Assembly: GCF_058153355.1 (NCBI RefSeq)
Contig: NZ_CM177019.1
Length of the DNA: 64,000 nucleotides
Direction: 5' to 3' (one strand)
This document shows, one piece after another, positions 5,203 through 51,694 of the stretch. Position numbers and translations under genes: made by a program. Below the pieces are notes generated by a model. That model ran no database searches, was not told where the DNA came from, and was given only the letters and a program-made list of their open reading frames with translations. Position 1 is the stretch's first letter. Each line of letters starts with the position of its first letter.

Positions 5203-5210
5203 TATACGGG

Positions 5211-5480
5211 CTACCCGATGATATACGGCAGGTTAGTGAACAAGGTACGGACGTAATCCAGCAACAGATTGAGCATCCACGGTCCGGCAATAATAATGGC
5301 GATAAATACGGCGATGATTTTCGGAATAAACGACAGCGTCATTTCATTAATCTGCGTGGCGGCCTGCAAAATACTGATGATAAGGCCCGTGACCAACGCC
5401 ACCAGCAATAGCGGGGCAGCCAGTGCCAGCGCGACTTTCATCGCTTCAGTCCCCATCATCATGACCGATTCAGGTGTCAT
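5211..5480 (-). CDS. fliQ: Flagellar export apparatus protein FliQ
   Basis: 89-aa hydrophobic ORF; operon position. Confidence 0.93.
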
Positions 5481-5489
5481 TTTGCCTCT

Positions 5490-6227: not shown

Positions 6228-6592
6228 CAGGATCTCCCGCTACGCTTAAGCAAGTTTTTCATGACCGACTGAAAATCGGTCTGTGGTATCTCTTCCGTTG
6301 GCGCAGAAGGGGGAAGTTTATGCAGCAGATTGATTTGCCCTGCGGTAACGCCGAGCACCAGCCGTGCATCTTCCACATCGACCACCACGACCCTTTCACG
6401 GGCGCCCAGCGAAGCACTGGCGCTAATTTTCAGACCGTTAACGCCAGTTCGTTTGGGGGCAAATCCCAGCCGTTTTACCAGCCAGGCAGCAGCGAGGATC
6501 AGGGCAATAATGGCGATCAGTGCGCCGCTCACCTGCAGCAGCGGTGCAGCAGAAACCGGCGCGGACGGTTGCACAGTAGCGTGGTTATTCAT
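6227..6592 (-). CDS. fliO: Flagellar protein FliO
   Basis: 121-aa ORF between fliN and fliP. Confidence 0.85.
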
Positions 6593-6594
6593 CG

Positions 6595-7008
6595 CTAACG
6601 GCTCAGGCGGCGCATTCGCTCAGACGGAGTAATGATATCGGTGATCCGCACGCCATATTTATCGGCAACGACCACCACTTCGCCCTGGGCGATTAAATAA
6701 CCGTTGATCAGAATATCCAGCGGTTCGCCTGCCAGGCCGTCCAGCGCTACGACTGACCCTTGTGTCAGGCGCAACAGCTCTTTGATGGTCATCCGCGTGC
6801 GGCCCAGTTCGACGGTCAGCTTAACCGGAATATCCATAATCAGGTCGATATCCTGCAACGTTCCGCTGACATCACCGCCGCCAAATTGCTGGAATACCGC
6901 GTCTGCAGCGCTTTTACTGCTGGTTGATTTTTGTTCGCTCAACGCTTCAGCCCACAGATCGTCCATTGCGCCGTTGTTATCATCGGCCGGATTATTCAAG
7001 TCACTCAT
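6595..7008 (-). CDS. fliN: Flagellar motor switch protein FliN
   Basis: 137-aa ORF; operon position. Confidence 0.93.
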   Translation of the reverse strand: MSDLNNPADDNNGAMDDLWAEALSEQKSTSSKSAADAVFQQFGGGDVSGTLQDIDLIMDIPVKLTVELGRTRMTIKELLRLTQGSVVALDGLAGEPLDILINGYLIAQGEVVVVADKYGVRITDIITPSERMRRLSR

Positions 7009-8009
7009 TTGGGCTGTTCCTCGTTCAGAGAATTCAAAATCGGGTTAATCAAATGTTCAATCCGTAACGCATACTGGCCGTTGAGGGTGCCGTACTGGCT
7101 GGTCAGCACCGGAACGCCGTCAACATGGGCGATGATGCGATCGGGTTTTTCTATCGGCAGGACGTCGCCGGGTTTCAGTTTTAAAATCTGCGACAGACGC
7201 AGCGATATATCGGCAAAGTTAGCGACCAGCTCCAGCTGTGAGTGCTGCACCTGACGCACCAGGTTATCGCGCCAGTTCTGATCTTCATTTCGTGAGTTTT
7301 CCAGCGGCGGGTTAACCAACAATTCCCGTAGCGGCTCGATCATGCTGAATGGCAGGCAGATATTAAATTCGCCGGTCAGGTTGCCAATCTCCACATGGAA
7401 CGGTGTGTTAACCACGATGTCGTTCGGCGAGGTGGTGATATTGGTAAATTTCACCTGCATTTCCGAACGCACGTACTCTACATCCAGCGGATTAATTGCC
7501 TTCCAGGCGTCGCTATAGCCTTCCAGCGCCAGCTTCAACATACGGTTGATGACGCGCTGTTCAGTATGGGTAAACTCGCGACCTTCCACTTTGGTTGGGA
7601 AGCGTCCATCGCCGCCAAACAGGTTATCCACGGCGATAAACACCAGACTCGGCGAGAACACCACCAGCCCTGTGCCGCGTAGCGGTTTCAGGTGGATTAG
7701 GTTCAGGTTGGTCGGCACCGGCAGGTTGCGGGCAAATTCATGGTACGGCTGAATGCGGATGGCCCCGACGGTAATGTCCGGGCTACGGCGCAATAGGTTG
7801 AACAGCCCCATACGGAAATGGCGGGCAAAACGCTCATTAATGATTTCCAGCGCCTGCAAACGTTCGCGTACAACCCGTCGTTGGGTATTCGGATCGTACG
7901 GACGAATGTCACTATCGCCGCTAACACTGGCCGTCGGTTCGTCTTTGACTTCGCTGTCACCATTCAACAGCGCATCAATTTCAGCTTGAGAAAGAATACT
8001 ATCGCCCAT
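7005..8009 (-). CDS. fliM: Flagellar motor switch protein FliM (334 aa from MGDSILSQAEIDALL)
   Basis: ORF 7005..8111 trimmed to the internal Met that gives the canonical 334-aa product. Confidence 0.92.
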   Translation of the reverse strand: MGDSILSQAEIDALLNGDSEVKDEPTASVSGDSDIRPYDPNTQRRVVRERLQALEIINERFARHFRMGLFNLLRRSPDITVGAIRIQPYHEFARNLPVPTNLNLIHLKPLRGTGLVVFSPSLVFIAVDNLFGGDGRFPTKVEGREFTHTEQRVINRMLKLALEGYSDAWKAINPLDVEYVRSEMQVKFTNITTSPNDIVVNTPFHVEIGNLTGEFNICLPFSMIEPLRELLVNPPLENSRNEDQNWRDNLVRQVQHSQLELVANFADISLRLSQILKLKPGDVLPIEKPDRIIAHVDGVPVLTSQYGTLNGQYALRIEHLINPILNSLNEEQPK

Positions 8010-8013
8010 GTCG

Positions 8014-8478
8014 TTATCGCAGAATAAAAGCGGTATACAGCACGTCGGTGACATCCTGTTTCGGTTGCCCGGCAACAAGCGGGGTGGAAAGTGTGGCTTT
8101 AATCTCAGCAATCAGGCTTTTCTTGCCTTCTTCTGTCGCCAGTACGGCAGCATCCTGACGCGAAAACAGTAACAGCAAGCGGCTACGGACTTCCGGCAAA
8201 TACTCACTTAGCCGCGAGCGGGTAGCTTCATCTTTTAGCCGCAGAGTTATGCCGATATAAAGCACGCGATCCGCATCACCCAAATTGACCGTAAAGGTAT
8301 CCAGCGCATAGAAGACCGGGGAGGGCACGACGCGTTGCTGCGCTTTGTCGTCAGCGGCAACCTGATGCGAATGCCAGTAGCTGTAACCTGCGCTGGCACA
8401 GGCCGCGAGGGTAATGAATACCAGAATCGGGATCCAAAGCGATCGCTTGCTTTTCTTGCTTATCGCGTAATCAGTCAT
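8014..8478 (-). CDS. fliL: Flagellar basal body-associated protein FliL
   Basis: 154-aa ORF, first gene of the fliLMNOPQR operon. Confidence 0.92.
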
Positions 8479-8582
8479 GTGTTGCGGTCTTCCTGTGTCG
8501 CTACTGCTTATCGGCTAATTATCCTGCGTCTTGAACGCAACAAAGCGGGGAAAAGACGCGGATTACGGTGCTACCTCTGACG

Positions 8583-9710
8583 TTAGGCGAAAATATCAAC
8601 GCCACTGTTGCCTGTTACGCGCCCTTGTAAAGAGACGGGAACGGGTAGCGCATCGTCGTCTTCACCCGCCAGAGGTTCATGATTTGCTGTGCGCTGGCTT
8701 TGCTGTTGCTGTGAAGCGGCCTGTTGCTGACCACTAAAGCTTTCGCCACTGATGTTGCTTTGCCCTAACTGAATGCCACTTTCTGCCAGCTGCGTACGCA
8801 GTACCGGTAGCGCAGCTTCCAGCGCGGCGCGTACGTGCTGATGCGGTGACACCATCTGGATTTGCGCCTGGCTATCATCCACTTTGAGGGAGATTTGTAC
8901 TTCACCTAAATCCTGCGGGTGCAGACGCAACTCTGCGCTTTGTTGCCCCTGGCGGGTAAACAGCGAAATATGCTGGCTTAATGATTGTTGCCATTCGTGA
9001 GAACCCAGCGGCGCACTCAAAACAGGTGCTGCGACGGTGGGCAGCGGCTGTGTCTGGTGCGGAGTGATGAGCGGGCTGACGGCAGCGGTCACCGGCGAAG
9101 GTGTGCTGATGACTTCCGCTTTACTCTGGGCTTCTGCTACCAGCGGTGTTACTGGCTGAGCTTGCGCGTCGGGGGCGTCATCAGGCTGTGCGGTTGTGAA
9201 TTGCGCAGTAGTCAGTTTTATGTAGAGAGTTGGTTTCTCTGTCGGTAACACGGTTGACGGCGCATCAGCCACTTTGGGCGTATTGTCAAAACCCGGCAAC
9301 ATCGCAAAAAGGGCGCTCAGGCTTGCGGTGACGTCTTCATTAAGCTCATCTGCTTTTTCGTCTTTTGTCGTATTTTTGTCAGCCACCGCAGCCAACGTCA
9401 TCGTCTGAGCGGTGGTTAACGGTGTTGATGTGGATTGTTCGTCGTTGATGACAGGCGGTATTTCATCCTCAGGGATCAGTAAATCCGCTTGTTGCACATC
9501 GGAAAGAATATCGCTAACCAGCGGCTCACCTTTTGTTATGGGTTTATCTGTTGCCACCAGCAACTGAGGGGCTGCTTTGTCGGTTGTTGTTTCACCTGCT
9601 ATTGCTCCACTCAACAATGCGAGAAAATCTTGTGCAGCATCGCTGGCTTTACCGCCGGGCAATATGGCGGTGTCAACGTCAGCGGTAATCACGGGCGCTA
9701 AGCGAATCAT
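8583..9710 (-). CDS. fliK: Flagellar hook-length control protein FliK
   Basis: 375-aa Pro/Gln/Ala-rich ORF; position. Confidence 0.92.
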
Positions 9711-10150
9711 TCGGGTTTCCTCATGGTGGCACGTTGGGCGAACTCATCCATCTTTTTCTGATCGAGACGGTTTTCTGCAAGCAGTGCCGCCGTGGATTGC
9801 CGTTCCTGCAGTGTCTGCCAGGCCTGCAAACGTTGTTTCTTTTCTCGCCAGCTGTTCAGGGCAATGTCAACTTTCTGCGTCCACTGATTAAGTTGCTGGC
9901 GATGCTGAGTAATGGCTTTTTCCAGCGTCTGGATAAACTGCTGATAGTTGATCCAGCGGTTACTGGTCATCCCGGCACTCATATCGCTGTTGAGGTTATT
10001 GCGATATTCATTCTGATAATCGATCAGCATTTTGAGTTGTTCCTCTGCCTGCTGGCATCCGCGACGCATTTCACCCAGCAGGCGCGCGGCATCTTCTACC
10101 TCTTTTTCTGCCAGATCTTTCAGGGTCGCCAGCGCGCCATGTTCTGCCAT
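9707..10150 (-). CDS. fliJ: Flagellar export chaperone-escort protein FliJ
   Basis: 147-aa coiled-coil ORF. Confidence 0.92.
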
Positions 10151-10171
10151 CTGCCGTTATCTCCTGCGTTT

Positions 10172-11541
10172 TCACACTGTCGGGAATATGCGCTCCAGCC
10201 CCTGGAGAGACTCTTCCCAGTCCGCGCGTTCAAAAATGCCTTGTTGCAAATAGCCCTCCAGCTGCGGCCACAGAGCGATGGCTTTATCGAGCATTGGATC
10301 GCTGCCTTTGGCATACGCGCCGACGCTAACCAGATCGCGGTTACGCTGAAAACTCGACAACAGCTGTTTGAAGGTGCGCACTCGCGCGTAATGTTGCTCG
10401 CTGATCAACGCCGTCATTGCACGGCTGATCGACGCTTCAATATCAATCGCCGGATAGTGTCCGGCTTCCGCCAGACGACGAGAAAGAACAATGTGACCGT
10501 CGAGGATCGCCCGTGCGGAGTCGGCAATCGGGTCCTGCTGGTCATCGCCTTCGGTGAGCACGGTATAAAACGCCGTAATTGAGCCGCCGCCGCTGATACC
10601 GTTACCGGCACGCTCGACCAGCGCCGGTAATTTGGCGAATACCGACGGTGGATAACCTTTGGTGGCAGGCGGTTCGCCAATCGCCAGCGCAATCTCACGC
10701 TGGGCCATCGCGTAGCGGGTGAGGGAGTCCATAATCAGCAACACATGCTGACCACGATCGCGAAAATCTTCGGCAATGCGCGTGGCATAGGCGGCACCTT
10801 GCATTCGCAGGAGCGGAGAAACATCCGCTGGAGCGGCAATCACCACGGAGCGTGCACGCCCTTCGGCACCGAGGATATTCTCAATAAAATCTTTTACTTC
10901 GCGCCCACGTTCACCAATCAAACCCACGACAATGACATCGGCGCGGGTGTAACGTGCCATCATCCCCAGCAGCACACTTTTACCGACACCAGAACCAGCA
11001 AATAGCCCCATACGCTGCCCGCGCCCAACGGTAAGCAGGGCATTGATTGGGCGCACGCCCGTGTCCAGCACATGTTCAATCGGTGTACGTTGCAAAGGGT
11101 TAAAAGGCGGGGTGATCAGCGCACCTGTTTCGGTCGTATCGGGGGAGGGAAGGCCATCAAGCGGTTTACCGCTGCCGTCCAGTACGCGACCTAACAACGC
11201 CGGACCGAGTGGCAACTGCTTGCCGCTTTGCAGCCCTTCAGCCGAAATGTGTTTGGCATAAACGCGCGCGCCGGGCAGGACACCTTCCACTTCTTCCAGC
11301 GGCATTAAAAACAGCCGTTGACCGTTAAAACCAACCACTTCGCTTTCTACTTCATGCGTTTCCGACCCGTTCTGGCGCTCAATCACACAGGTTGCGCCGA
11401 GCGGCAATTGTAATCCGGTAGCCTCCAGCACCAGCCCGGTGGCGCGGGTTAATCGCCCGTAGCGACGTACCGCAGGCAACTGCGCCATTTTGGCTTCGAA
11501 GTTATCCAGCGTGGTTAGCCAGCGAGTCAGGCGCGTGGTCA

Positions 11542-11542
<1 letters not shown>
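10172..11542 (-). CDS. fliI: Flagellum-specific ATPase FliI
   Basis: 456-aa ORF with Walker A GSGVGKS. Confidence 0.95.
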
Positions 11543-14867
<3,325 letters not shown>

Positions 14868-15396: not shown

Positions 15397-15729
15397 GTTG
15401 TGTAACCTGTTGTTGATTACATCCGATCTCACCGCGTGGGGCATGGATGGGGCAAACACACTCAATTTCTGGTTTAAAATGGAAACCTGATTCTGAAAGT
15501 TTTCTGCCATCCACGATCTGTAAACGCGATAACATGTTTTGTCTTCGCTTTGCTCATAGGAAGAGTGAACTCTTTCGTTAGCCTGGGGTTCCTTCTGATC
15601 ATTATTGTTCCTGCCTTTATCTCTTGCCACGCCAGAGCCCCCTGGATACACATACACCAGGATGAAAACGGTGAGTTGTGTTCAAACTGTAGTACAATTC
15701 TCTCCAGTATGAACAGGAAAGAATATGCT

Positions 15730-16062
15730 ATGAACCCTTATATTTATCTTGGTGGCGCAATACTTGCAGAGGTCATTGGTACAACCTTAATGAAGTTTTC
15801 AGAGGGGGTTACACGGTTATGGCCCTCTGTTGGCACAATTATTTGTTATTGTGCCTCATTCTGGTTATTAGCTCAGACGCTGGCTTATATACCTACAGGG
15901 ATTGCTTATGCTATCTGGTCAGGAGTCGGTATCGTTCTGATTAGTTTGCTTTCCTGGGGATTTTTTGGCCAACGGCTGGACCTGCCAGCCATCATAGGCA
16001 TGATGTTGATTTGTGCCGGTGTGTTAGTCATTAACTTGTTGTCACGAAGTGCACCGCATTAA
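15730..16062 (+). CDS. emrE: Small multidrug resistance (SMR) efflux protein EmrE
   Basis: C-terminal 110 aa of ORF 15550..16062 (MNPYIYLGGAILAEVIGTTLMKFSEG...) match recalled EmrE, including the conserved Glu14. Confidence 0.9.
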   Translation: MNPYIYLGGAILAEVIGTTLMKFSEGVTRLWPSVGTIICYCASFWLLAQTLAYIPTGIAYAIWSGVGIVLISLLSWGFFGQRLDLPAIIGMMLICAGVLVINLLSRSAPH

Positions 16063-16230
16063 AAAATAATCATCCTTGAGATAACAAGAATCTGATTTGT
16101 GCATATTATGGCTAATGTTCGGGGCAACTTTATAATTATGATTGCATTTGCGCGATCATTGCGCCTTTTTGCATAATGAGATCAAGGCACATCAAATAAA
16201 ATAACGATAGGTCACAACAAAGAGGTTTTT

Positions 16231-16782
16231 ATGAAAAAACTTATCGTTTCAAGTGTATTGGCATTCATAACATTTTCTGCGCAGGCCGCAGCATTTCAGG
16301 TCACTAGTAATGAAATAAAAACAGGAGAGCAACTTACAACGTCTCATGTATTTTCTGGATTTGGGTGTGAGGGGGGGAATACATCGCCCTCATTAACCTG
16401 GTCTGGTGCTCCTGAAGGCACCAAAAGCTTTGCCGTAACTGTGTATGATCCAGATGCGCCTACAGGCAGTGGATGGTGGCACTGGACTGTTGCTAATATT
16501 CCAGCAACGGTAACATATTTGCCCGCTGATGCAGGAAGACGTGATGGTACAAAACTTCCGACTGGTGCTGTCCAAGGCCGAAATGATTTTGGCTATGCGG
16601 GATTTGGTGGAGCATGTCCTCCCAAAGGAGATAAACCCCATCATTACCAGTTTAAAATATGGGCTCTAAAAACTGATAAGATTCCTGTGGATTCTAATTC
16701 CAGCGGAGCGTTAGTTGGTTATATGCTTAATGCCAATAAAATTGCAACCGCTGAGATAACACCCGTTTATGAGGTAAAGTAG
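16231..16782 (+). CDS. ybcL: YbcL, periplasmic PEBP/RKIP-family (UPF0098) protein; DLP12-prophage-type cargo
   Basis: 183-aa ORF with signal peptide and PEBP motifs (DPDAP, GWWHW, GxHHY); follows emrE as in DLP12. Confidence 0.85.
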   Translation: MKKLIVSSVLAFITFSAQAAAFQVTSNEIKTGEQLTTSHVFSGFGCEGGNTSPSLTWSGAPEGTKSFAVTVYDPDAPTGSGWWHWTVANIPATVTYLPADAGRRDGTKLPTGAVQGRNDFGYAGFGGACPPKGDKPHHYQFKIWALKTDKIPVDSNSSGALVGYMLNANKIATAEITPVYEVK

Positions 16783-16791
16783 GATAAGAGT

Positions 16792-17589
16792 ATGCTGGCA
16801 AAAGATAGGACTAACCTAAAGATTGAAGAAATACGGATGCATAAACATCATGAGATTCACAGGGTTAAGCCTCTTATGCCAGCTTTATGTCGTATCCGTC
16901 AGGGAAAAAAAGTTATCAATTGGGAGACGCATAGTCTAACTGTTGATAATAATCAGATAATATTATTTCCCTGTGGATATGAATTTTATATTGCGAATTA
17001 CCCAGAAGCAGGTCTTTATCTTGCAGAAATGCTTTATTATCCCATTGATCTAATTGAAAAGTTCCAAAATCTTTATGCGATAACCGATCAAATTCGTAAC
17101 ACGACAGGTTTCTGCTTACCTCAGAATCCCGAGTTAATATATTGTTGGGAGCAACTAAAAACATCTGTTTCCCGAGGCTTCTCAACGCAAATTCAGGAAC
17201 ACTTAGCAATGGGCGTTCTACTTTCATTAGGAGCACATCATGTTAATTGTTTACTTTTATCAGATAGTAAACAATCATTAATAAGTCGTTGTTATAACCT
17301 AATGCTATCCGAACCTGGAACAAAATGGACAGCAAACAGGGTAGCGAGATATCTCTACATTTCTGTTTCCACATTGCATCGCCGTCTGGCAAGCGAGGGA
17401 GTAAGTTTTCAAAGTATATTGGACGACGTGAGGTTAAATAATGCGTTGTCTGCTATACAAACGACAGTAAAACCCATCAGCGAGATTGCCAGGGAAAATG
17501 GTTACAAGTGTCCTTCTCGTTTTACTGAAAGGTTCCATAATCGTTTTAAGATAACACCAAGAGAGCTAAGAAAAGCGTCCAGAGAGTAA
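16792..17589 (+). CDS. ybcM: AraC-family transcriptional regulator YbcM
   Basis: 265-aa ORF with C-terminal AraC-type HTH; order matches DLP12 ybcL-ybcM. Confidence 0.8.
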
Positions 17590-17598
17590 AAGTATTTT

Positions 17599-17718
17599 AT
17601 GAAGGAGCAACAGCATCGATTTTTATTTTGGAAAATCAATACGGCATACTCAACCTATTGGAGCCTGAACAATCCGGTGACTTCTGCGCTAATCGGGGAC
17701 GTTTATAAGCACATATAA
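17599..17718 (+). CDS. Candidate small ORF (39 aa, MKEQQHRFLFWKINTAYSTYWSLNNPVTSALIGDVYKHI), possibly ylcH-like
   Basis: Short ORF immediately after ybcM, where DLP12 carries ylcH; no convincing ribosome-binding site. Confidence 0.25.
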   Translation: MKEQQHRFLFWKINTAYSTYWSLNNPVTSALIGDVYKHI

Positions 17719-18042
17719 TTGATACTCTCTTCCTCCATCACAATTTCAGAAATGCACGTGTGATTTTTTGGCATCCGGCGTTTGGACTATGTGGAGTTCA
17801 AGAGTGGGAAAGTTACAAGAGGTTGAGGGGATAATTAAAGGGATGCTTATGACATTAGATATCCGGTTAGGTACGGATATCGTTGTTATTAAATCTAATT
17901 GATACGTTAATTGTTCACTGAGTATTATTAAAAATGGGGCGTTGAAACGCCCCAGAAAATAAAGGGTAATATATAACAGAAGGTTTATATAGTCAGAAGC
18001 AAGATAGCGCTTCTAAGGAAAGTGGCTTGAGGGGGCCACTTA

Positions 18043-18075
18043 TATGTTGGGGAGGCAAAGCCTCCCACAACATAT
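18043..18075 (-). terminator. Perfect inverted repeat (atgttggggaggc / gcctcccacaacat) just downstream of the porin gene
   Basis: 13-bp stem with 4-nt loop directly 3' of the porin stop at 18091. Confidence 0.6.
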
Positions 18076-18090
18076 CTTTGAGTAATCAGA

Positions 18091-19173
18091 TTAGAACTGG
18101 TAAACCAATCCTACAGCAACGATATCATCGGTAGCAACGCCAGATGCTTTCGTGAAATCGCTCTTATCAATCAGGTTGATTTTGTAATCAACAAAAGTGG
18201 ACATATTTTTGTTGAAGTAATAGGTTGCACCTACATCAATATATTCAACCAGGTCCTGATCACCCCACGCACCCAAGTCTTTTCCTTTAGATTGCAGGTA
18301 AGCAACGGACGGACGCAGACCGAAGTCGAACTGATATTGTGCAACTACTTCGAAGTTTTGTGCTTTGTTGGCAATATGGTTATTACCAAAAACAGTCATG
18401 TTCTGGGTTTCAGAATAGGTGGTAGCCAGATAGATGTTGTTCGCATCATATTTCAGACCAGCTGCCCATACTTCAGCATTTTGACCAGATGCATTCAGGC
18501 TGTTGTTACCGTAGATAACCTGATCATTAGTGCGGTCAGATTTAGCATAGGTTGCACCTACACCGAATCCTTCATACTCATAAGTAGTGGAGAAACCGAA
18601 ACCATCACCGTTAGCTTCAGTTACGTCAGTGCGGTCATTTTTACCCTGATACTGAGCAGCAAAGTTCAGACCATCAACCAGACCAAAGAAGTCGTTGTTA
18701 CGATAAGTTGCAACACCTGTGGTGCGACCAGTCATGAACACATCTGTTTGGGTCCAGGTATCGCCACCGAATTCTGGCAGAACGTCGGTCCATGCACCGA
18801 TATCGTATGCTACACCGTAGTTACGGCCATAATCGATGGAGCCGTAGTCACCGAATTTCAGGCCAGCGAAGGCAAGACGGGTTTTATCTTTGGAAGAACC
18901 TTGAGATTCAGCACGGTTGCCTTTGAATTCATATTCCCACTGACCGAAACCAGTCAGTTGATCGTTGATTTGGGTTTCGCCTTTGAAGCCCAGACGAACA
19001 TAAGTTGTGTCGCCATCATCTGCATCGTTAGAAGAGAAGTAGTGCTTAGCATTAACTTTTCCGTACAGATCCAGCTTGTTACTGTCTTTATTGTAAATCT
19101 CTGCTGCCTGAGCAGACATCGCCATCAGTACTGATGCAGCTACAGCAGAAATTGCCACTGTTAATTTTTTCAT
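18091..19173 (-). CDS. nmpC: Intact NmpC/OmpD-type general porin of the OmpC/OmpF family
   Basis: 360-aa ORF with signal peptide ([23 protein letters not shown]) and C-terminal ...VGLVYQF; closest to recalled NmpC; prophage-type cargo on the opposite strand to emrE-ybcM as in DLP12. Confidence 0.8.
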
Positions 19174-19703
19174 CGTGAGCCCTTTTATTTGAACTATTAT
19201 TTAAAAATGATGTCACTGCACCACAAATATTCATCTAATCAATGAGATTATTTCAAGATGTAAGTTTTAGTTTCTCATTTAAATTGTGAAGTAGATCCCT
19301 ATTTTTATCTGAACTGTTTCTATTGCACACAATGCATGACTATTTTGTGAACGAATATAAATTTGGTAGTCAAATTATATTAAAGGTTGTTATTTATGAT
19401 TGACTCATAATTTATTTATTTAATTTAAATAGCCTAAAAATAACCATGGAGATTATTTGCATGATATTTGTTTAGATTTGTTAATGTAGTTGAGGTGATT
19501 TTATTTAATACGCAATATAGCGCCGCTTGATATTAGTTCTATTTTTTTTTTGCGTAAGATAGATGAGACAAACTGAGACGCATAATGGTTTGCAAGGCTC
19601 TAATACTTTGATGTTGAGGATGTGATGGGGCATGTACGTGCATAGTACAATGATGTCCATGCCGGTGTGGATAATCTCCAGGCTTATCCGGTGCGCCGTA
19701 AAA

Positions 19704-20177
19704 CCCCGTCCTTCAGGGCGGGGATATAAGGCGCGGTTTTCCACCTGACCAGGTGTTTGCTGTTGTTCAATGTATTGGCGGATGACGGATATTGGCGCAC
19801 CTCCGCAGCTACTGGCAAAATAGCCGGGACTCCACAAAACGCCTTTGTAGTAATACCTGACTGCAATATCTGGTCGATCTCGTCGCAGTAATCTACCCGA
19901 TACGCCTTTGTGGCTGTTTACCAGACTGGATATCGCCAGTTTGGGAGGATAGTTAATTAACAAATGGACGTGATTCTGGTTCGCCATCCATTTCAACCAG
20001 TTCAGCTTCAAAATCAGCACATACATTTGAAAAGTAAGTGCGTAGTTTTTCTGTCGCGTCATGGTCAAAAATCTGACGTCGGTATCTGGTGACAAAGACC
20101 CGGTGAACATGCATCAGAAAAACACAGTGCCTTCCACGCCGGATATCGGTTTCTTTTTTCACAGACCAAAGTATCAT
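19704..20177 (-). pseudogene. tnpA: IS200/IS605 Y1 (HuH) transposase TnpA, split by a frameshift
   Basis: N-terminal part in ORF 19953..20177 (HCVFLMHVHRVFVTRYRRQIF...ELVEMDGEPE); HuH motif and catalytic-Tyr region in a different frame in ORF 19505..20110 (NHVHLLINYPP...SCGGAPISVIRQYIEQQQ); frame switch near 19965..19985. Confidence 0.7.
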
Positions 20178-20184
20178 TTGGCCT

Positions 20185-21393
20185 GTGAAACGACTACAAG
20201 CATTTAAATTCCAGTTAAGACCAGGTGGTCAACAGGAGCGTGAAATGAGGCGCTTCGCAGGCGCATGTCGTTTCGTTTTCAATCGTGCTCTGGCACGTCA
20301 GAATGAGAATCATGAGGCCGGTAATAAATACATCCCTTACGGGAAAATGGCTTCCTGGCTGGTTGAGTGGAAAAATGCCACTGAAACGCAATGGCTTAAA
20401 GATTCGCCCTCACAGCCATTGCAACAGTCACTGAAAGACCTTGAGCGGGCTTACAAAAACTTCTTCCAGAAGCGGGCTGCTTTTCCCCGATTCAAAAAGC
20501 GGGGACAGAATGATGCATTCCGCTACCCGCAGGGCGTTAAGCTCGATCAGGAAAACAGCCGTATTTTTCTGCCGAAACTGGGCTGGATGCGCTACCGGAA
20601 CAGCCGTCAGGTCACGGGTGTTGTGAAAAATGTCACGGTCAGCCAGTCCTGCGGTAAGTGGTACATCAGTATTCAGACAGAAAGTGAAGTATCCACTCCG
20701 GTTCATCCTTCAGCATCAATGGTCGGGCTGGATGCTGGCGTGGCTAAACTCGCCACGCTGTCAGATGGCACAGTCTTTGAGCCTGTAAACAGTTTTCAGA
20801 AAAACCAGAAGACGCTGGCGAGACTTCAGCGACAGTTAAGCCGCAAGGTCAAATTCAGCAACAACTGGCAGAAGCAGAAACGCAAAATACAGCGACTGCA
20901 TTCCCGTATCGCAAATATCCGCAGGGACTACCTTCACAAAGTCACAACGACCGTCAGCAAAAACCACGCAATGATAGTCATTGAGGATTTGAAGGTCAGC
21001 AACATGTCAAAGTCAGCAGCGGGTACGGTCAGCCAGCCGGGGCGCAATGTCCGGGCAAAATCAGGTTTAAACCGTTCGATACTGGATCAGGGCTGGTATG
21101 AAATGCGCCGCCAGCTTGAGCACAAGCAGCTCTGGAGTGGCGGTCAGGTGCTTGCTGTTCCGCCAGCGTACACAAGCCAGCGTTGCGCGTGCTGTGGTCA
21201 TACAGCGAAAGAAAACCGCCTGTCACAAAGTAAATTCAGATGCCAGGTATGTGGATATACAGCGAACGCCGATGTAAATGGCGCTCGTAACATTTTAGCG
21301 GCGGGGCACGCCGTTCTTGCCTGTGGAGAGATGGTGCAGTCAGGCCGCCCGTTGAAGCAGGAACCCACCGAAATGATTCAGGCGACAGCCTGA
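20185..21393 (+). CDS. tnpB: TnpB (IS605 OrfB), RuvC-like RNA-guided endonuclease; intact; GTG start
   Basis: 402-aa ORF; N-terminus resembles TnpB; C-terminal zinc finger CxxC...CxxC ([37 protein letters not shown]) and RuvC-like segments. Confidence 0.85.
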
Positions 21394-21432
21394 ACGTAGC
21401 AGGGATCCACGTCCTTCAGGGCGTGGAGGATG

Positions 21433-22105
21433 TCAACAAACAGGTTGAATTAACTTCGCGCCCTGGTTTTTGACATTACCCACCGCGCGCGACACAGGGT
21501 GCCAGGTGAACTGGTTTGCTGGAACACAGCCACTGGCAGAAATTTCAGAGGCTTCTTTACCGCTAATCTCTTGCCGCATCCATTCCCGCGCAGCTTCTGG
21601 CGACAGTACCAGCGGGCGGCGGTCATGAATATCTACCAGACCCTGGTCTGCTGCTGCAGTGACAATTAAAAATCCTTCGGCTTCGTCACCACGCTCAAAC
21701 GGTGTGCTACCTATCGCGGCTATAAAAACAGGTTGTCCATCAGCGCGATAGATAAAATAAGGCTGTTTTTTTGTCGCCTTCTTTTTTCCACTCAAACCAG
21801 CCATCGGCAAAACAGATTGCCCGACCATGTTGCCAGAGCGGTTTAAACATACGACTGGTTGCCGCAGTTTCTACGCGGGCGTTAATCAGCGGCGGTTTAT
21901 CCCACCATCCGGGAGCATATCCCCAGAAAACCGGATCCAGATGAAGGTGTTCATCACGTTCACTGAGCAGAAGAACTTTGGTTCCCGGCGCGACGTTGTA
22001 TCTGCCAATGGGTTCGGGATCGTAGGGAATATCGCGTTCAATATCTTCCGCGAGAAGCGCAAGGTAATCTTCACGCGTTTGGGATTGGGCAAAGCGTCCA
22101 CACAT
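21433..22105 (-). pseudogene. yedK: YedK (SRAP/HMCES-family abasic-site processing protein) disrupted by a +1 frameshift in a homopolymer run
   Basis: N-terminal 121-aa ORF (MCGRFAQSQ..., catalytic Cys2) and C-terminal 131-aa ORF overlap in different frames; 7-nt T run at 21766..21772 where the intact reading requires 6. Confidence 0.8.
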
Positions 22106-26638: not shown

Positions 26639-28054
26639 TTATTTCGAGTTGCTATTTGAGGTGTCGAACTGCTGTGTCAGATAGCTACTGGTGGAGTTAA
26701 GCGAGTTCATTAACACATCTAATTGGGTGAACTGGGCTTTATAGCGCGTCATTAAGGTATCGATACGCTCACTGGCTGCGTTGTACTGGTCGGTCAAATT
26801 ATTCAGCGTTTTGCTGACGCCATCTTTTGCGGCCTGGATTATCCCGGTGGAAGAGAGCCAACTGGTCAGGTTGCTACTAATGCCGGTAGTTACCCCTGTA
26901 CTTTTACCGTCACCTATAAACATTTCACCGATGCCAGCGGCATCTTTTTTTAGTGCCGTTTGCAGTTTGTCGGTCGCGATTTCCAGCTTGCCGGTACTGG
27001 CATCGCTGGTAATGCCAATCTGTGCCAGCGTTTTATAGTTTGAACTGCTGTGAGTATTGGCGAGCAAGGTTTTAAGCTGAGTCTGGATGGTACGCAGTGT
27101 GGAGTCACCAAGTAATGCTCCATTACTGGAGTCCTGACTTTCTGCTCCGGCATCGACAGCGGTGTATTTGGTTAAGCTACTGAATGTATCCTGCAATGTG
27201 TTATAGGCATCCACCCATGCTTTGACTGCATTTTCAGCTTTGGATGTGTCTTTACTGATGGTCAGTGTCTGATTACCGGTGGTGACGTCATTCAGGTTGA
27301 GTGTGATATCTTCCAGCGCGTCGCTGATAGTGTTACTGCTGTTTTCAATCTCAACGTTATTGACTGTTAGTTTGGCGTTTTGCGCGGTGACGCTTTCAAT
27401 CATGCCATTGCTGCTATCACCCGACGTTCCGTTGTAACCCATAAAACTTTCCAGGGCGCTGTCGCCGCTGACGCTAAGTTTCATAGCGTTATCGTTGCCC
27501 GTATCGTTAGCGGTGATGGACAGACGATATTCGCCGTTTCCCACATTGATGATACTGGCGCTGACACCAGCTTTGGCGTTGTTAATGGCATCGCGAATGC
27601 CGGAAAGTGACGAGTTAGCCGCGCTGATATCAATCGTGACCGGATCTTTACCGCCGCCTTGCTGGATGGTCAGTACGCTATCGCTGGTAGCGATGGCAGC
27701 TTTACTGTCTTTTTGACTAATTTTTGTGGTCAGCGTTTGTGCCTGCGCCAGTTGGCTAACGCTAATGGTGAATTTCCCGGCAATCGCGCTGCCCGTGGTG
27801 GTGGCGCTGAAAGCCGATGAACTGCTGGTGGTTGAAGTGGCGGTAAATAAATCGGCTTTATTCAGTGCTGTGTTGGCTGTCTGGAAACTCTCTAGTGCAC
27901 TTTTCAGCGTCCCGTAGGCGCTCAGTTTCGCGGTGTAAGAGCTTTGCTGTTTTGATATCGGCGTCAGGGTAGATTTTTCTGCCGCCTCCAGACTGTCAAG
28001 GATGCTGCTTAAGTCCAGCCCCGACCCAACCCCAAGCGTTGAAATACTAGCCAT
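26639..28054 (-). CDS. fliD: Flagellar filament cap protein FliD
   Basis: 471-aa ORF (MASISTLGVGSGLDLSSILDSL...). Confidence 0.92.
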   Translation of the reverse strand: MASISTLGVGSGLDLSSILDSLEAAEKSTLTPISKQQSSYTAKLSAYGTLKSALESFQTANTALNKADLFTATSTTSSSSAFSATTTGSAIAGKFTISVSQLAQAQTLTTKISQKDSKAAIATSDSVLTIQQGGGKDPVTIDISAANSSLSGIRDAINNAKAGVSASIINVGNGEYRLSITANDTGNDNAMKLSVSGDSALESFMGYNGTSGDSSNGMIESVTAQNAKLTVNNVEIENSSNTISDALEDITLNLNDVTTGNQTLTISKDTSKAENAVKAWVDAYNTLQDTFSSLTKYTAVDAGAESQDSSNGALLGDSTLRTIQTQLKTLLANTHSSSNYKTLAQIGITSDASTGKLEIATDKLQTALKKDAAGIGEMFIGDGKSTGVTTGISSNLTSWLSSTGIIQAAKDGVSKTLNNLTDQYNAASERIDTLMTRYKAQFTQLDVLMNSLNSTSSYLTQQFDTSNSNSK

Positions 28055-28096
28055 ATAGATTCCTTAATCATGCGACGTATAGAACGAATATCGAGG

Positions 28097-28123
28097 TTAT
28101 CGGCGTAAGCGGGGCAAAGTTTA
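28097..28123 (-). promoter_or_regulatory. sigma28 (FliA) class 3 promoter for fliDST
   Basis: Minus-strand TAAACTTT-N11-GCCGATAA, a near-perfect match to the sigma28 consensus TAAAGTTT-N11-GCCGATAA. Confidence 0.75.
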
Positions 28124-28196
28124 CGATTTATTTTTTGGTTTAATGACACGAACAGCAACGAGGAAGGGGAGTATTTCGACCGCTAGAAAAAAATTC

Positions 28197-28223
28197 TAAA
28201 GGTTGTGAGTGACCAGACGATAA
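28197..28223 (+). promoter_or_regulatory. sigma28 (FliA) class 3 promoter for fliC
   Basis: TAAAGGTT-N11-GACGATAA about 75 bp upstream of the fliC ATG. Confidence 0.75.
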
Positions 28224-28299
28224 CAGGGTTGACGGCGACGAAGCCGAAGGGTGGAAGCCCAATACCTAAACCGTAGACTTGAAAACAGGAAAAGAAATC

Positions 28300-29781
28300 A
28301 TGGCACAAGTCATTAATACCAACAGCCTCTCGCTGATCACTCAGAACAACATCAACAAAAACCAGTCTGCGCTGTCGACGTCTATCGAGCGTCTGTCTTC
28401 CGGTCTGCGTATCAACAGCGCAAAGGATGATGCAGCGGGCCAGGCCATTGCTAACCGTTTCACCTCTAACATTAAAGGCCTGACTCAGGCTGCACGTAAC
28501 GCCAACGACGGTATTTCTCTGGCGCAGACTACTGAAGGCGCGCTGTCTGAGATTAACAACAACTTGCAGCGTGTGCGTGAGTTGACTGTACAGGCGACGA
28601 CCGGGACTAACTCTGAATCTGACCTGTCTTCTATCCAGGATGAAATCAAATCCCGTTTAAGCGAAATTGACCGTGTTTCTGGTCAGACTCAGTTTAACGG
28701 CGTGAACGTACTGGCTAAGAATGACACCCTGTCTATTCAGGTAGGTGCAAATGACGGTCAGACTATCAATATTGACCTGCAGCAGATCGATTCTCATACA
28801 CTGGGTCTGGATGGTTTCAGCGTTAAAAACAATGATGCAGTGAAAACCAGTGCTGCGGTGAATACTCTTGGGGGTGGGGCAAGTTCTGTTGCTGTCGACT
28901 TCGCAACAACCAATTTGACTGCTATCGCTGGTCTCGGTGGCGGTGCTATCAGCGAAATTGCTAAAGACGATAATGGTGATTACTACGCGCATGTTACAGG
29001 GACTACGGGTAGTACTGCTGATGGTTACTATGCTGTCGATATTGACAAGGCTAACGGTAAGGTCGCTCTGAAAGATGGTAACGTAGATACACCGACAGGT
29101 ACGCCAACGACGACAAGCACATATGACTTCACAGACGCTGGTCAAACCGTTTCCTTTGGCACTGATGCTGCAACAGCAGGTATCAGCACTGGCGCTTCTC
29201 TCGTCAAACTTCAGGATGAGAAAGGCAATGATACTGCTACTTATGCAATCAAAGCACAAGATGGCAGCCTGTATGCCGCCAACGTTGATGAGACTACCGG
29301 TAAAGTCACTGTCAAAACCGCCAGCTATACCGATGCTGACGGCAAAGCAGTGACCGATGCCGCTGTAAAACTGGGTGGCGACAATGGCAAAACCGAAATT
29401 GTTGTCGATGCTGCGTCAGGTAAAACTTACGATGCTGGTGCACTGCAAAACGCTGATCTCTCCAGTGCAACCAACACGGTAACCGCAATCCCGAACGGTA
29501 AAACCACGTCTCCTCTGGCTGCCCTTGACGACGCAATCAGCCAGATCGACAAATTCCGCTCCTCCCTCGGTGCGGTACAAAACCGTTTGGATTCCGCCGT
29601 CACCAACCTGAACAACACCACTACCAACCTGTCTGAAGCGCAGTCCCGTATTCAGGACGCCGACTATGCGACCGAAGTGTCCAACATGTCGAAAGCGCAG
29701 ATTATCCAGCAGGCCGGTAACTCCGTGCTGGCAAAAGCCAACCAGGTACCGCAGCAGGTTCTGTCTCTGCTGCAGGGTTAA
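28300..29781 (+). CDS. fliC: Flagellin FliC (493 aa from MAQVINTNSL); conserved termini with a variable central H-antigen domain
   Basis: ORF trimmed to the canonical start; N- and C-terminal regions match recalled flagellin, central region diverges from K-12. Confidence 0.93.
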   Translation: MAQVINTNSLSLITQNNINKNQSALSTSIERLSSGLRINSAKDDAAGQAIANRFTSNIKGLTQAARNANDGISLAQTTEGALSEINNNLQRVRELTVQATTGTNSESDLSSIQDEIKSRLSEIDRVSGQTQFNGVNVLAKNDTLSIQVGANDGQTINIDLQQIDSHTLGLDGFSVKNNDAVKTSAAVNTLGGGASSVAVDFATTNLTAIAGLGGGAISEIAKDDNGDYYAHVTGTTGSTADGYYAVDIDKANGKVALKDGNVDTPTGTPTTTSTYDFTDAGQTVSFGTDAATAGISTGASLVKLQDEKGNDTATYAIKAQDGSLYAANVDETTGKVTVKTASYTDADGKAVTDAAVKLGGDNGKTEIVVDAASGKTYDAGALQNADLSSATNTVTAIPNGKTTSPLAALDDAISQIDKFRSSLGAVQNRLDSAVTNLNNTTTNLSEAQSRIQDADYATEVSNMSKAQIIQQAGNSVLAKANQVPQQVLSLLQG

Positions 29782-44951: not shown

Positions 44952-45747
44952 ACCTAATATCCTTATATCCAGAAGTGGAGAGGTGCAAGATAAATCAAAA
45001 CACCATAATTACTGTTTGCAGAATAATTCCTTTCTGCCGGTCCGAAATGTGATCGTGGAGTCAATTCTGACGATGATCTGAAATAAGAATAACGTCTGAA
45101 CGGGTATAAGAAAATGCTTAAATCATCAAGTTTATATATTTTTACATTTCATTGATGAAATCAATGTAACTGCAATGAATTTTAATGATGATGCTTTTTG
45201 TATCTTGTTGATATTAATAGGGGGATTTGAATTCATGATGAAGAAATGATTTTTTAAAACATTTTTTCATTTTTGCGATATGGCTCTCAGTATACGTGTT
45301 CTGTTAATTAATGAGCACGGTGATAATTAATGGCGAAATGAATGACGCTCATTTTCCACCTCTTTGAGTTGCGGTTATTACACCATTTCAAAAGCTCAAC
45401 GCCAGGTAATGTGGCCAATTGACTGGTTAAAAAGAAGACGTTCCGCATGGGTACCAAAGACAACAAGGATTTCCAGGCTAATCTTATGGATTAATCTGCT
45501 GCGTGCTCGGTGATTTGTCTGACAAATAAGCTTTTACTTATGTCTTTTCCCGCTAAATTTATGCACGTTCTCACTGTAATTCTGCGATGTGATATTGCTC
45601 TCCTATGGAGAATTAATTTCTCGCTAAAACTATGTCAACACGGTCACTTATCTTTTAGTTAAAAGGTAATGCTTTGTTTTCCGATTAATTTAACGAAAGT
45701 CATTCGTTTTTGCCCTACACAAAACGACACTAAAGCTGGAGAGAACC

Positions 45748-46743
45748 ATGCACAAATTTACTAAAGCCCTGGTAGCCATTGGTCTGGCAGCCGTTATGTC
45801 ACAATCCGCTATGGCGGAGAACCTGAAGCTCGGTTTCCTGGTGAAGCAACCGGAAGAGCCGTGGTTCCAGACCGAATGGAAGTTTGCCGATAAAGCCGGG
45901 AAGGATTTAGGGTTTGAAGTTATTAAGATTGCCGTGCCGGATGGCGAAAAAACATTGAACGCTATCGACAGCCTGGCTGCCAGTGGCGCGAAAGGTTTCG
46001 TTATTTGTACTCCGGACCCGAAACTCGGCTCTGCCATCGTGGCGAAAGCGCGTGGCTACGATATGAAAGTCATTGCCGTGGATGACCAGTTTGTTAACGC
46101 CAAAGGCAAGCCAATGGATACCGTTCCGCTGGTGATGATGGCAGCGACCAAAATTGGCGAACGTCAGGGCCAGGAACTGTATAAAGAGATGCAGAAACGT
46201 GGCTGGGATGTCAAAGAAAGCGCGGTGATGGCGATTACCTCCAACGAACTGGATACGGCTCGTCGCCGTACTACGGGTTCTATGGATGCGCTGAAAGCTG
46301 CAGGATTCCCGGAAAAACAAATTTATCAGGTACCTACCAAATCTAACGACATCCCCGGGGCATTTGACGCTGCCAACTCAATGCTGGTTCAACATCCGGA
46401 AGTTAAACATTGGCTGATCGTCGGTATGAACGACAGCACCGTGCTGGGCGGCGTACGCGCGACGGAAGGTCAGGGCTTTAAAGCGGCCGATATTATCGGT
46501 ATCGGTATCGGTATTAACGGTGTGGATGCAGTAAGCGAACTGTCTAAAGCACAGGCAACCGGCTTCTACGGTTCCCTGCTGCCAAGCCCGGACGTACATG
46601 GCTATAAATCCAGTGAAATGCTTTACAACTGGGTAGCAAAAGACGTTGAACCGCCAAAATTTACCGAAGTTACCGACGTGGTACTGATCACGCGTGACAA
46701 CTTTAAAGAAGAACTGGAGAAAAAAGGTTTAGGCGGTAAGTAA
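45748..46743 (+). CDS. araF: Periplasmic L-arabinose-binding protein AraF
   Basis: 331-aa ORF with signal peptide (AVMSQSAMA). Confidence 0.93.
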   Translation: MHKFTKALVAIGLAAVMSQSAMAENLKLGFLVKQPEEPWFQTEWKFADKAGKDLGFEVIKIAVPDGEKTLNAIDSLAASGAKGFVICTPDPKLGSAIVAKARGYDMKVIAVDDQFVNAKGKPMDTVPLVMMAATKIGERQGQELYKEMQKRGWDVKESAVMAITSNELDTARRRTTGSMDALKAAGFPEKQIYQVPTKSNDIPGAFDAANSMLVQHPEVKHWLIVGMNDSTVLGGVRATEGQGFKAADIIGIGIGINGVDAVSELSKAQATGFYGSLLPSPDVHGYKSSEMLYNWVAKDVEPPKFTEVTDVVLITRDNFKEELEKKGLGGK

Positions 46744-46812: not shown

Positions 46813-48327
46813 ATGCAACAGTCTACCCCGTATCTCTCATTTCGCGGCATCGGTAAAACGTTTCCCGGCGTTAAGGCGCTGACGGATATTAGTTTTGACT
46901 GCTATGCCGGTCAGGTTCATGCGTTGATGGGTGAAAATGGCGCAGGAAAATCAACTCTCTTAAAAATCCTCAGCGGCAACTATGCGCCAACCACGGGTTC
47001 TGTAGTGATTAATGGGCAGGAAATGTCCTTTTCCGACACAACCGCAGCACTTAACGCGGGTGTGGCGATTATTTACTAGGAACTGCATCTCGTGCCGGAA
47101 ATGACCGTCGCGGAAAACATCTATCTCGGCCAGCTGCCGCATAAAGGCGGCATTGTGAATCGCTCATTGCTGAATTATGAGGCGGGTTTACAACTTAAAC
47201 ATCTTGGTATGGATATTGACCCGGACACGCCGCTGAAATATCTCTCCATTGGTCAGTGGCAGATGGTTGAAATTGCCAAAGCGCTGGCGCGTAACGCCAA
47301 AATTATCGCCTTTGATGAGCCAACCAGCTCCCTCTCTGCCCGTGAAATCGACAATCTTTTCCGCGTTATTCGTGAACTGCGAAAAGAGGGGCGGGTGATC
47401 TTATACGTTTCTCACCGTATGGAAGAAATATTTGCCCTCAGCGATGCCATCACCGTCTTTAAAGATGGGCGTTATGTCAAAACCTTTACTGATATGCAGC
47501 AGGTTGACCACGACGCCCTGGTGCAGGCGATGGTCGGGCGCGACATCGGCGATATCTACGGTTGGCAACCGCGTAGTTATGGCGAGGAGCGGCTGCGTCT
47601 TGATGCTGTGAAAGCACCAGGCGTGCGTACGCCAATAAGTCTGGCGGTTCGCAGTGGAGAAATTGTCGGTCTGTTTGGTCTGGTCGGGGCAGGGCGTAGC
47701 GAATTAATGAAAGGCATGTTTGGCGGTACGCAAATCACCGCCGGTCAGGTTTATATCGACCAACGGCCGATTGATATTCGTAAACCGAGCCACGCTATTG
47801 CCGCAGGCATGATGCTCTGCCCGGAAGATCGCAAAGCGGAAGGCATTATTCCTGTGCACTCCGTTCGCGACAATATCAACATCAGTGCCAGACGCAAACA
47901 TGTGCTCGGCGGTTGTGTAATCAACAACGGTTGGGAAGAAAACAATGCCGATCACCACATTCGTTCGCTCAACATCAAAACGCCGGGCGCAGAGCAACTG
48001 ATCATGAATCTTTCAGGCGGAAATCAGCAAAAAGCCATTCTGGGCCGCTGGTTATCGGAAGAGATGAAGGTCATTTTGCTGGATGAACCTACGCGCGGCA
48101 TTGATGTTGGTGCTAAGCATGAAATTTACAACGTGATTTATGCGCTGGCAGCGCAGGGCGTGGCGGTGCTGTTTGCCTCCAGCGACTTACCCGAAGTCCT
48201 CGGCGTTGCCGACCGGATTGTGGTGATGCGGGAAGGCGAAATCGCCGGTGAATTGTTACACGAGCAGGCAGATGAGCGTCAGGCACTGAGCCTTGCGATG
48301 CCTAAAGTTAGCCAGGCAGTTGCCTGA
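46813..48327 (+). pseudogene. araG: Arabinose ABC transporter ATPase AraG interrupted by an in-frame amber codon (TAG at 47077..47079)
   Basis: Reading frame split into a 103-aa ORF (46768..47079, with Walker [10 protein letters not shown]) and a 411-aa ORF (47092..48327) in the same frame; the TAG sits where the recalled K-12 protein has Gln ([12 protein letters not shown]). Confidence 0.8.
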
Positions 48328-48341
48328 GTAAGGAGAGTATG

Positions 48342-51694
<3,353 letters not shown>

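What the first reader, a model, noticed from the sequence alone, without database searches (positions are those of the whole stretch)
46492..46515. In-frame tandem hexamer repeat in araF
The sequence att atc ggt atc ggt atc ggt att encodes IIGIGIGI. My recollection of K-12 AraF (329 aa, ...DIIGIGINGV...) has one fewer GI unit than this 331-aa ORF. This would be a slipped-strand length polymorphism in a surface loop of the binding protein.
Basis: partly seen in the sequence, partly recalled or inferred. Interest (0 to 1): 0.2.

Follow-up and report, generated by a model that had tools for sequence, protein, structure and literature searches.

The report
Rare six-base duplication in araF
A rare E. 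coli lineage carries one extra Gly-Ile unit in its arabinose-binding protein, made by a six-base tandem duplication in a conserved core strand, and the transporter's ATPase gene next door is already broken by a stop codon, so this is ordinary decay of a dispensable sugar-uptake operon.

Summary
Window 46492-46515 reads att atc ggt atc ggt atc ggt att, and araF (45748-46743) encodes 331 aa. K-12 AraF and the crystallised arabinose-binding protein have 329 aa and IIGIGI, one Gly-Ile unit fewer. An E. coli strain carries the exact two-unit precursor sequence, so the event is a clean 6-base tandem duplication (TATCGG, 2.5 to 3.5 copies), consistent with replication slippage.

- It is not a population polymorphism. 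No complete E. coli genome matched a three-unit probe, and the exact protein sits on only 5 public contigs. A codon-degenerate search for the three-unit form found nothing in 100,044 species genomes or in the metagenome collection.
- It is not a surface loop. The run is modelled as a beta-strand between two helices. Its length is invariant in 120 homologue clusters. It ends at Asn257/Asp260, which I recall as sugar-binding residues (mature Asn232/Asp235).

In the same lineage araG carries CAG->TAG at codon 89, leaving only the Walker A motif. The AraFGH transporter is therefore probably already inactive. This is an ordinary rare allele of low interest.

The parts
45748..46743 (+). araF, L-arabinose-binding periplasmic protein, 331 codons plus stop (K-12: 329)
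   Evidence: ORF. E = 5.8e-203 to solved ABP 1abe over mature residues 1-306. Aligns to K-12 araF with a single 6-nt gap. The identical protein is deposited as EGO8352123.1 / HFG3507499.1 'arabinose ABC transporter substrate-binding protein [Escherichia coli]'.
45748..45816 (+). Signal peptide (23 codons); carries the lineage-specific substitution A9V
   Evidence: The mature crystallised ABP starts at query residue 24. V9 in the window against A9 in K-12, PE164, O157 and 2CC.
46492..46515 (+).
46494..46514 (+). Perfect period-6 tandem tract, TATCGG x 3.5. The extra 6-nt unit can be placed anywhere within it.
   Evidence: TRF, 100% matches, score 42. Only lag-run of 15 or more in the window. 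The two-unit precursor (15-nt tract) is present in E. coli 2017-02-2CC, L005.
46516..46527 (+). Codons N257-G258-V259-D260 (mature Asn232...Asp235), immediately after the strand. Invariant in homologues; recalled as sugar-binding residues.
   Evidence: N257, G258, V259 and D260 are invariant columns in alignment A1 and present in 119 of 120 homologues. The ligand role is from my own knowledge of the Quiocho-laboratory ABP structures and could not be confirmed in the paper library.
46813..48327 (+). araG, ATP-binding subunit, same length as K-12 (1515 nt) but interrupted: a pseudogene
   Evidence: Collinear with K-12 araG with no gaps. One internal stop. No gene is called here in the independent contig L001.
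47077..47079 (+). Amber codon TAG at araG codon 89 (CAG/Gln in K-12, PE164, O157, 2CC and others)
   Evidence: Walker A lies at residues 40-47. The LSIGQ (144), LSGGN (400) and Walker B (420) motifs all lie downstream of the stop. No complete E. coli genome matches the 101-nt probe at 100%.
48342..49328 (+). araH, permease subunit, intact
   Evidence: 987 nt, no internal stop. The protein is identical to a very common E. coli allele.

Best explanation
A single replication-slippage event duplicated one 6-base unit inside a short perfect repeat in araF (TATCGG, 2.5 to 3.5 copies). This happened on an E. coli allele that uses GGT-ATC codons. It added one Gly-Ile pair to the conserved core beta-strand IIGIGI, which leads into the sugar-binding residues Asn232/Asp235 of the arabinose-binding protein. 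The allele is inherited within one rare E. coli lineage. In that same lineage araG, which encodes the transporter's ATPase, carries an amber codon at position 89 that leaves only the Walker A motif. The high-affinity AraFGH arabinose importer is therefore most likely non-functional, and the araF insertion is either a second loss-of-function lesion or a change tolerated because the operon is no longer under selection. Shown: the duplication, its precursor allele, its rarity, its position in a strand of invariant length, and the araG stop. Inferred: slippage as the mechanism, loss of transporter function, and relaxed selection.
For: Sequence and frame. K-12 and the solved ABP lack the unit. The exact two-unit precursor GATATTATCGGTATCGGTATTAAC exists in E. 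coli 2017-02-2CC. It is the only perfect short tandem repeat in the window. An independent isolate contig, L001, differs by 5 SNPs in 12,996 nt with no gaps and shares both the insertion and the amber codon, so this is a real inherited allele. Rarity: no complete E. coli genome reaches 95% identity to the three-unit probe. With the two-unit probe, 4,098 genomes are at >=95% and all 60 rows sampled across the ranking span 98 nt. The exact protein is on 5 contigs under 2 NCBI accessions. Conservation of segment length: 0 of 120 homologue clusters have residues in the inserted columns. Burkholderia AraF 4kzk aligns without a gap here. Strand rather than loop: AlphaFold models place E249-254 between helices in both proteins, and with the insertion local pLDDT falls from 79 to 65 and from 86 to 55. 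The araG amber lies upstream of every motif except Walker A. Of about 63 K-12 orthologues in the window, only araG and yedK are broken, and araF has the only in-frame indel among genes sharing the K-12 allele type.
Against: No functional data exist. A two-residue insertion keeps the in/out alternation of a beta-strand, so the protein might still fold and bind arabinose. The AlphaFold confidence drop is weak evidence, because the whole window model is less confident (74.7 vs 81.2) and AlphaFold is not a reliable predictor of mutation effects. The ligand role of Asn232/Asp235 rests on my memory and could not be confirmed in the searchable literature. The order of the two lesions is unknown, because no relative carrying only one of them was found. 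About 245 complete genomes gave no hit with the 98-nt probe (about 10 of them lack araF altogether), and their copy number was not determined.
Confidence: 0.75

Rival explanations
1. Neutral, recurrent length polymorphism in a tolerant surface loop of AraF: the copy number of the hexamer drifts among strains with no functional consequence.
For: The tract is a slippage-prone perfect repeat. The insertion is in frame, and the rest of AraF is nearly unchanged (only A9V is lineage-specific).
Against: No copy-number variation was seen in any complete E. coli genome examined. Segment length is invariant in 120 of 120 homologue clusters and in at least 120 species, with 0 three-unit hits in the genome and metagenome collections. 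The segment is modelled as a beta-strand between helices, not a loop.
Confidence: 0.1
2. Sequencing or assembly artefact: the extra hexamer is not present in the organism.
For: Short tandem repeats can be miscalled, and the reads were not available to me.
Against: An independent public contig (L001, GCA_043012465.1) differs from the window by 5 SNPs over 13 kb and has the identical araF and araG. The exact protein is recorded on 5 contigs under 2 NCBI accessions and in Logan assemblies. A whole-unit, in-frame 6-nt gain is not a typical error mode.
Confidence: 0.03
3. Adaptive loss or modification: the lineage was selected to lose high-affinity arabinose uptake, or to alter AraF ligand binding. 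The two lesions in one operon would then reflect selection rather than drift.
For: Two of the three lineage-specific gene lesions found in the 64-kb window fall in one three-gene operon. The insertion abuts invariant residues recalled as ligand contacts.
Against: With araG truncated at codon 89, an altered AraF cannot deliver substrate. Apart from these lesions the operon sequences are ordinary common alleles: a revertant AraG equals the 2CC/L129 allele and AraH is a very common allele. That pattern fits recent chance inactivation. There are no phenotype or ecology data.
Confidence: 0.12

Closest known systems
E. coli L-arabinose-binding protein AraF/ABP (K-12 b1901, NP_416414.1; PDB 1ABE, 5ABP, 6ABP, 8ABP and related entries)
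   Same: Same gene at the same chromosomal position (ftnB-araF-araG-araH-otsB). 96.9% nucleotide identity to K-12 with the gap counted. The mature protein is identical to the crystallised ABP except A165S and the insertion.
   Different: One extra Gly-Ile in the strand IIGIGI (331 vs 329 aa), plus A9V in the signal peptide.
Two-unit araF allele of E. coli 2017-02-2CC (NZ_AP027764.1; WP_039020707.1)
   Same: Identical codon usage through the repeat (GAT ATT ATC GGT ATC GGT ATT AAC). It is the best whole-region match, at 98.8% over 8 kb.
   Different: It has 2.5 rather than 3.5 copies of TATCGG, and its araG is intact (CAG at codon 89).
Slipped-strand mispairing at short sequence repeats (contingency loci, phase variation)
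   Same: The inferred mutational mechanism: gain of one unit within a perfect short tandem repeat.
   Different: The unit is a multiple of three, so there is no frame switching. The tract has only 3.5 copies. No variation among strains was found, so it does not behave as a switch.
Pseudogenisation of dispensable sugar-uptake operons in E. coli lineages
   Same: A nonsense codon in araG plus an indel in araF, in an otherwise intact and collinear chromosome region.
   Different: Decay is limited and recent. araH and the upstream region show no disruptive changes relative to K-12, and the window shows none of the IS expansion typical of Shigella-like genome reduction.

Membership tests
AraF / L-arabinose-binding protein (type I periplasmic binding protein) | Full-length sequence similarity to the experimentally solved ABP | tested here: met
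   E = 5.8e-203 to 1abe_A, query residues 24-331 against chain 1-306, with a single 2-residue gap.
AraF / L-arabinose-binding protein (type I periplasmic binding protein) | Peripla_BP_1 / Peripla_BP_4 domain | tested here: met
   PF00532 and PF13407 are recorded for the identical protein in L001 and for all listed homologues.
AraF / L-arabinose-binding protein (type I periplasmic binding protein) | Operon context araF-araG-araH at the K-12 locus | tested here: met
   Collinear with K-12 ftnB-araF-araG-araH-otsB.
AraF / L-arabinose-binding protein (type I periplasmic binding protein) | Binds L-arabinose and delivers it to AraGH | not testable with these tools
   Needs binding and uptake assays. 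The insertion before Asn257 and the araG amber codon both argue against normal function.
Phase-variable short-sequence-repeat (contingency) locus | Repeat copy number varies among closely related strains | tested here: not met
   No complete genome matches the three-unit probe at >=95% identity. All 60 sampled rows and all 4,098 genomes at >=95% identity have two units. The two lineage members examined both have 3.5 copies.
Phase-variable short-sequence-repeat (contingency) locus | A unit gain or loss switches expression, by shifting the frame or changing promoter spacing | tested here: not met
   The unit is 6 nt and lies inside the coding sequence, so the reading frame is preserved.
Inactivated (pseudogenised) araFGH operon | At least one essential transporter gene carries a disabling mutation | tested here: met
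   araG has CAG->TAG at codon 89, upstream of the signature, Walker B and entire second ATPase domain. No araG gene is called in L001.
Inactivated (pseudogenised) araFGH operon | Loss of high-affinity arabinose transport in the organism | not testable with these tools
   Needs an uptake assay. Amber suppression or reinitiation at GTG 47092 cannot be formally excluded.

The most novel reading that the evidence does not exclude
The 331-aa AraF is still folded and exported, and the lengthened strand repositions Asn232/Asp235 so that ligand affinity or specificity changes. This would give a natural example of binding-protein retuning by a two-residue strand insertion. Alternatively, the lineage was positively selected to lose high-affinity arabinose uptake, through two independent hits in one operon.
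Probability: 0.05. Interest if true: 0.3.

Novelty: new member of a known kind. Interest (0 to 1): 0.1.

Why it matters
It matters little beyond annotation. It shows that a textbook binding protein can carry an in-frame strand insertion in a natural lineage, and that the araFGH operon of that lineage should be annotated as inactive because of the araG amber codon. It is also a caution for readers of raw sequence. An in-frame repeat expansion is not necessarily in a loop, and the neighbouring genes show whether the gene is still under selection. If the variant protein were shown to fold, it would be a small but neat case study of how well a Rossmann-like core strand next to a ligand site tolerates an insertion.

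Tried and rejected
- Shigella-type genome decay as context: rejected. The window is collinear with K-12 from dgcQ to cheY, the flagellar and chemotaxis genes are full length, and only araG and yedK are broken. NCBI labels the exact protein Escherichia coli.
- Literature support for Asn232/Asp235 as arabinose ligands: five full-text searches found nothing usable, so this stays as recalled knowledge.
- Using the redesigned ABP 2wrz to mark pocket residues: the design changed K10, W16, F17, E20, C64, D90, M108, N177 and L298 but not 232 or 235, so it is uninformative.
- Finding a relative with only one of the two lesions through the exact AraH protein: the AraH allele is very common (10,982 blocks). 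All ten loci returned had AraF-329 and AraG-504, and the closest was only about 98.5% identical. The order of events is unresolved.
- Search for 'araFGH' with 'pseudogene' in the literature: nothing relevant turned up.
- The 6-kb region without a K-12 counterpart was checked as possible context. It is a common accessory island unrelated to the finding.

Full report
**1. The observation.** Window 46492-46515 reads att atc ggt atc ggt atc ggt att. It lies in frame in a 331-codon ORF at 45748-46743 on the + strand, where it encodes I249-I-G-I-G-I-G-I256. Tandem Repeats Finder reports 46494-46514 as a perfect period-6 array (TATCGG, 3.5 copies, score 42). This is the only perfect array of three or more copies in the 64-kb window. 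It is also the only tract with 15 or more consecutive self-matches at any lag from 2 to 12. The repeat is therefore real and far beyond chance.

**2. Comparison with K-12 and the solved protein.**
- The ORF is araF. Residues 24-331 match the crystallised L-arabinose-binding protein (1abe and related entries) at E = 5.8e-203, with a single two-residue gap exactly at the run.
- K-12 MG1655 araF (b1901) is 990 nt / 329 aa and reads gat atc atc ggc att ggc att aac, i.e. DIIGIGIN.
- Besides the insertion, the window protein differs from K-12 only by A9V (in the signal peptide) and A165S.

**3. Origin.**
- K-12 uses GGC-ATT codons in the run, whereas the window uses GGT-ATC.
- E. coli strain 2017-02-2CC is the best regional match, at 98.8% over 8 kb, and its length differs from the window by exactly 6 nt.
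- That strain carries GAT ATT ATC GGT ATC GGT ATT AAC, which is the window sequence minus one 6-nt unit.
- The event is therefore a clean tandem duplication inside a pre-existing 15-nt perfect repeat, going from 2.5 to 3.5 copies. This is the classic signature of replication slippage; the mechanism itself is inferred.
- Across araF, araG and araH, plus the 797 nt upstream of araF, this is the only net length difference from K-12.

**4. Is it real, and how common is it?**
- The exact 331-aa protein is on only 5 contigs of a collection of 153 billion gene positions.
- NCBI holds it under two accessions, EGO8352123.1 and HFG3507499.1, both labelled Escherichia coli.
- One of those contigs (L001, GCA_043012465.1) differs from the window by 5 SNPs in 12,996 nt with no gaps, and has identical araF and araG. 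It is a different isolate of the same lineage, so the allele is inherited and not an assembly artefact.
- Among 5,426 complete E. coli genomes, none reaches 95% identity to a 104-nt three-unit probe. The best hits are 92.3%, which equals a 6-nt gap plus 2 mismatches.
- With a 98-nt two-unit probe, 5,181 genomes match and 4,098 are at >=95% identity, which is arithmetically impossible with a 6-nt indel. All 60 rows sampled evenly from best to weakest span exactly 98 nt.
- About 245 genomes gave no hit with the short probe and remain unscored.
- I found no sign of copy-number polymorphism.

**5. Conservation of the segment.**
- In 120 cluster representatives of AraF homologues (84-99% identity, many Enterobacterales genera), none has residues in the two inserted columns. 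G-[IV]-G-I-N-G-V-D is essentially invariant (invariant columns).
- A codon-degenerate DNA pattern for I-G-I-G-I-G-I-N-G-V-D has no match in one genome for each of 100,044 species, and none in the JGI metagenome collection.
Its matches include Vibrio, Aeromonas, Tolumonas and the betaproteobacteria Silvimonas and Paludibacterium.
- The Burkholderia AraF structure 4kzk aligns DMIAVGING to DIIGIGING without a gap.
- The length of this segment has therefore been held constant over a wide evolutionary range.

**6. Where it sits in the protein.** AlphaFold models built on the same 30 homologues compare as follows.

| Feature | K-12 AraF | Window AraF |
|---|---|---|
| Strand | 249-254 (IIGIGI) | 249-254 (IIGIGI) |
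| Following coil | N255-D258 | G255-I256-N257 |
| Following helix | 259-263 | 258-264 |
| Mean pLDDT, residues 251-260 | 79 | 65 |
| Mean pLDDT, residues 261-270 | 86 | 55 |
| Mean pLDDT, whole model | 81.2 | 74.7 |

- In both models the strand follows helix 229-241. The run is therefore a core beta-alpha-beta strand, not a surface loop.
- In the window model the extra G255-I256 is pushed into the coil before N257, on the side facing the binding cleft.
- The confidence drop is only weak evidence of damage, because AlphaFold is not a reliable predictor of mutation effects.
- From my own knowledge of the Quiocho-laboratory ABP structures, mature Asn232 (N257 here) hydrogen-bonds the sugar and Asp235 (D260 here) takes part through water. 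I could not confirm this in the paper library, and the redesigned ABP 2wrz left these positions unchanged.
- A two-residue insertion keeps the in/out alternation of a strand, so folding is not excluded.

**7. Context: the operon is already broken.**
- I transferred K-12 gene models onto the window. It is collinear with K-12 from dgcQ to cheY, and all flagellar and chemotaxis genes are full length.
- Of about 63 orthologues, only two are disrupted: yedK (frameshift) and araG.
- araG keeps its K-12 length (46813-48327) but has CAG->TAG at codon 89 (47077-47079). All compared E. coli have CAG there.
- The stop lies after Walker A (residues 40-47). It lies before LSIGQ (144), LSGGN (400) and Walker B (420).
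- By homology with other ABC ATPases, which I recall rather than tested, Gln89 in IIYQEL is the Q-loop glutamine.
- No araG gene is called in L001, and no complete genome matches a 101-nt probe across the amber codon at 100%.
- With the stop reverted, AraG is identical to common alleles (2CC, L129), and AraH is a very common allele. The inactivation therefore looks recent.
- An AraF that cannot hand its substrate to an ATPase has no transport role, so selection on its structure is presumably relaxed.
- I found no relative carrying only one lesion, so I cannot say which came first.

**8. Verdict.**
The extra unit and a slippage origin hold. 'Polymorphism' and 'surface loop' do not.
- What is there is a rare, lineage-private, in-frame 6-nt tandem duplication. 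It lies in a conserved core strand of a textbook binding protein, within an operon whose ATPase gene is a pseudogene.
- This is an ordinary product of mutation and relaxed selection. It is of low interest except as an annotation note and a possible small case study in tolerance to strand insertions.

Noticed in passing
window 46813-48327 (stop at 47077-47079): araG is a pseudogene. An amber codon (CAG->TAG) at codon 89 leaves only the Walker A motif. It splits the gene into the 103-aa and 411-aa ORFs listed mechanically, and it is absent from all complete E. coli genomes probed.
   Followed up: yes
window 21433-22105 (- strand): yedK (SOS-response-associated peptidase) is 670 nt against 669 in K-12. 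It carries a one-base insertion that shifts the frame, leaving two overlapping ORFs of 121 and 131 aa. Whether this is lineage-specific was not checked.
   Followed up: partly
window ~15400-21430: A roughly 6-kb stretch replaces the K-12 yedL-yedN-intG region. The best E. coli matches annotate it as ybcL, ybcM-like regulator, an OmpC-family porin, and IS200/IS605 tnpA plus a TnpB/InsQ RNA-guided endonuclease (402-aa ORF at 20185-21393). It is a common accessory island, present at >=80% coverage in 1,027 genomes.
   Followed up: partly
window 26664-29781: fliD (73% identity to K-12) and the central part of fliC (only the ends align, at 85-91%) are a different flagellar H-antigen allele from K-12. 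This could be used to serotype the lineage.
   Followed up: no
window 4419-14867: The fliF-fliR flagellar genes are 93.5-96% identical to K-12, which is noticeably more diverged than neighbouring housekeeping genes (97-99%). This suggests a recombinant or divergent flagellar segment.
   Followed up: no
window 45190-45540: The ftnB-araF intergenic region carries 32 substitutions and a compensated 2-nt/2-nt indel relative to K-12, clustered at 45190-45540. Whether AraC/CRP sites of the araF promoter are affected was not examined.
   Followed up: no
protein cluster: The 90%-identity cluster that holds AraF (11,231 members) also contains full-length AraG proteins, and its representative is a 504-aa sequence. 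This looks like a clustering artefact in the database, so cluster-level counts for AraF should not be trusted.
   Followed up: no
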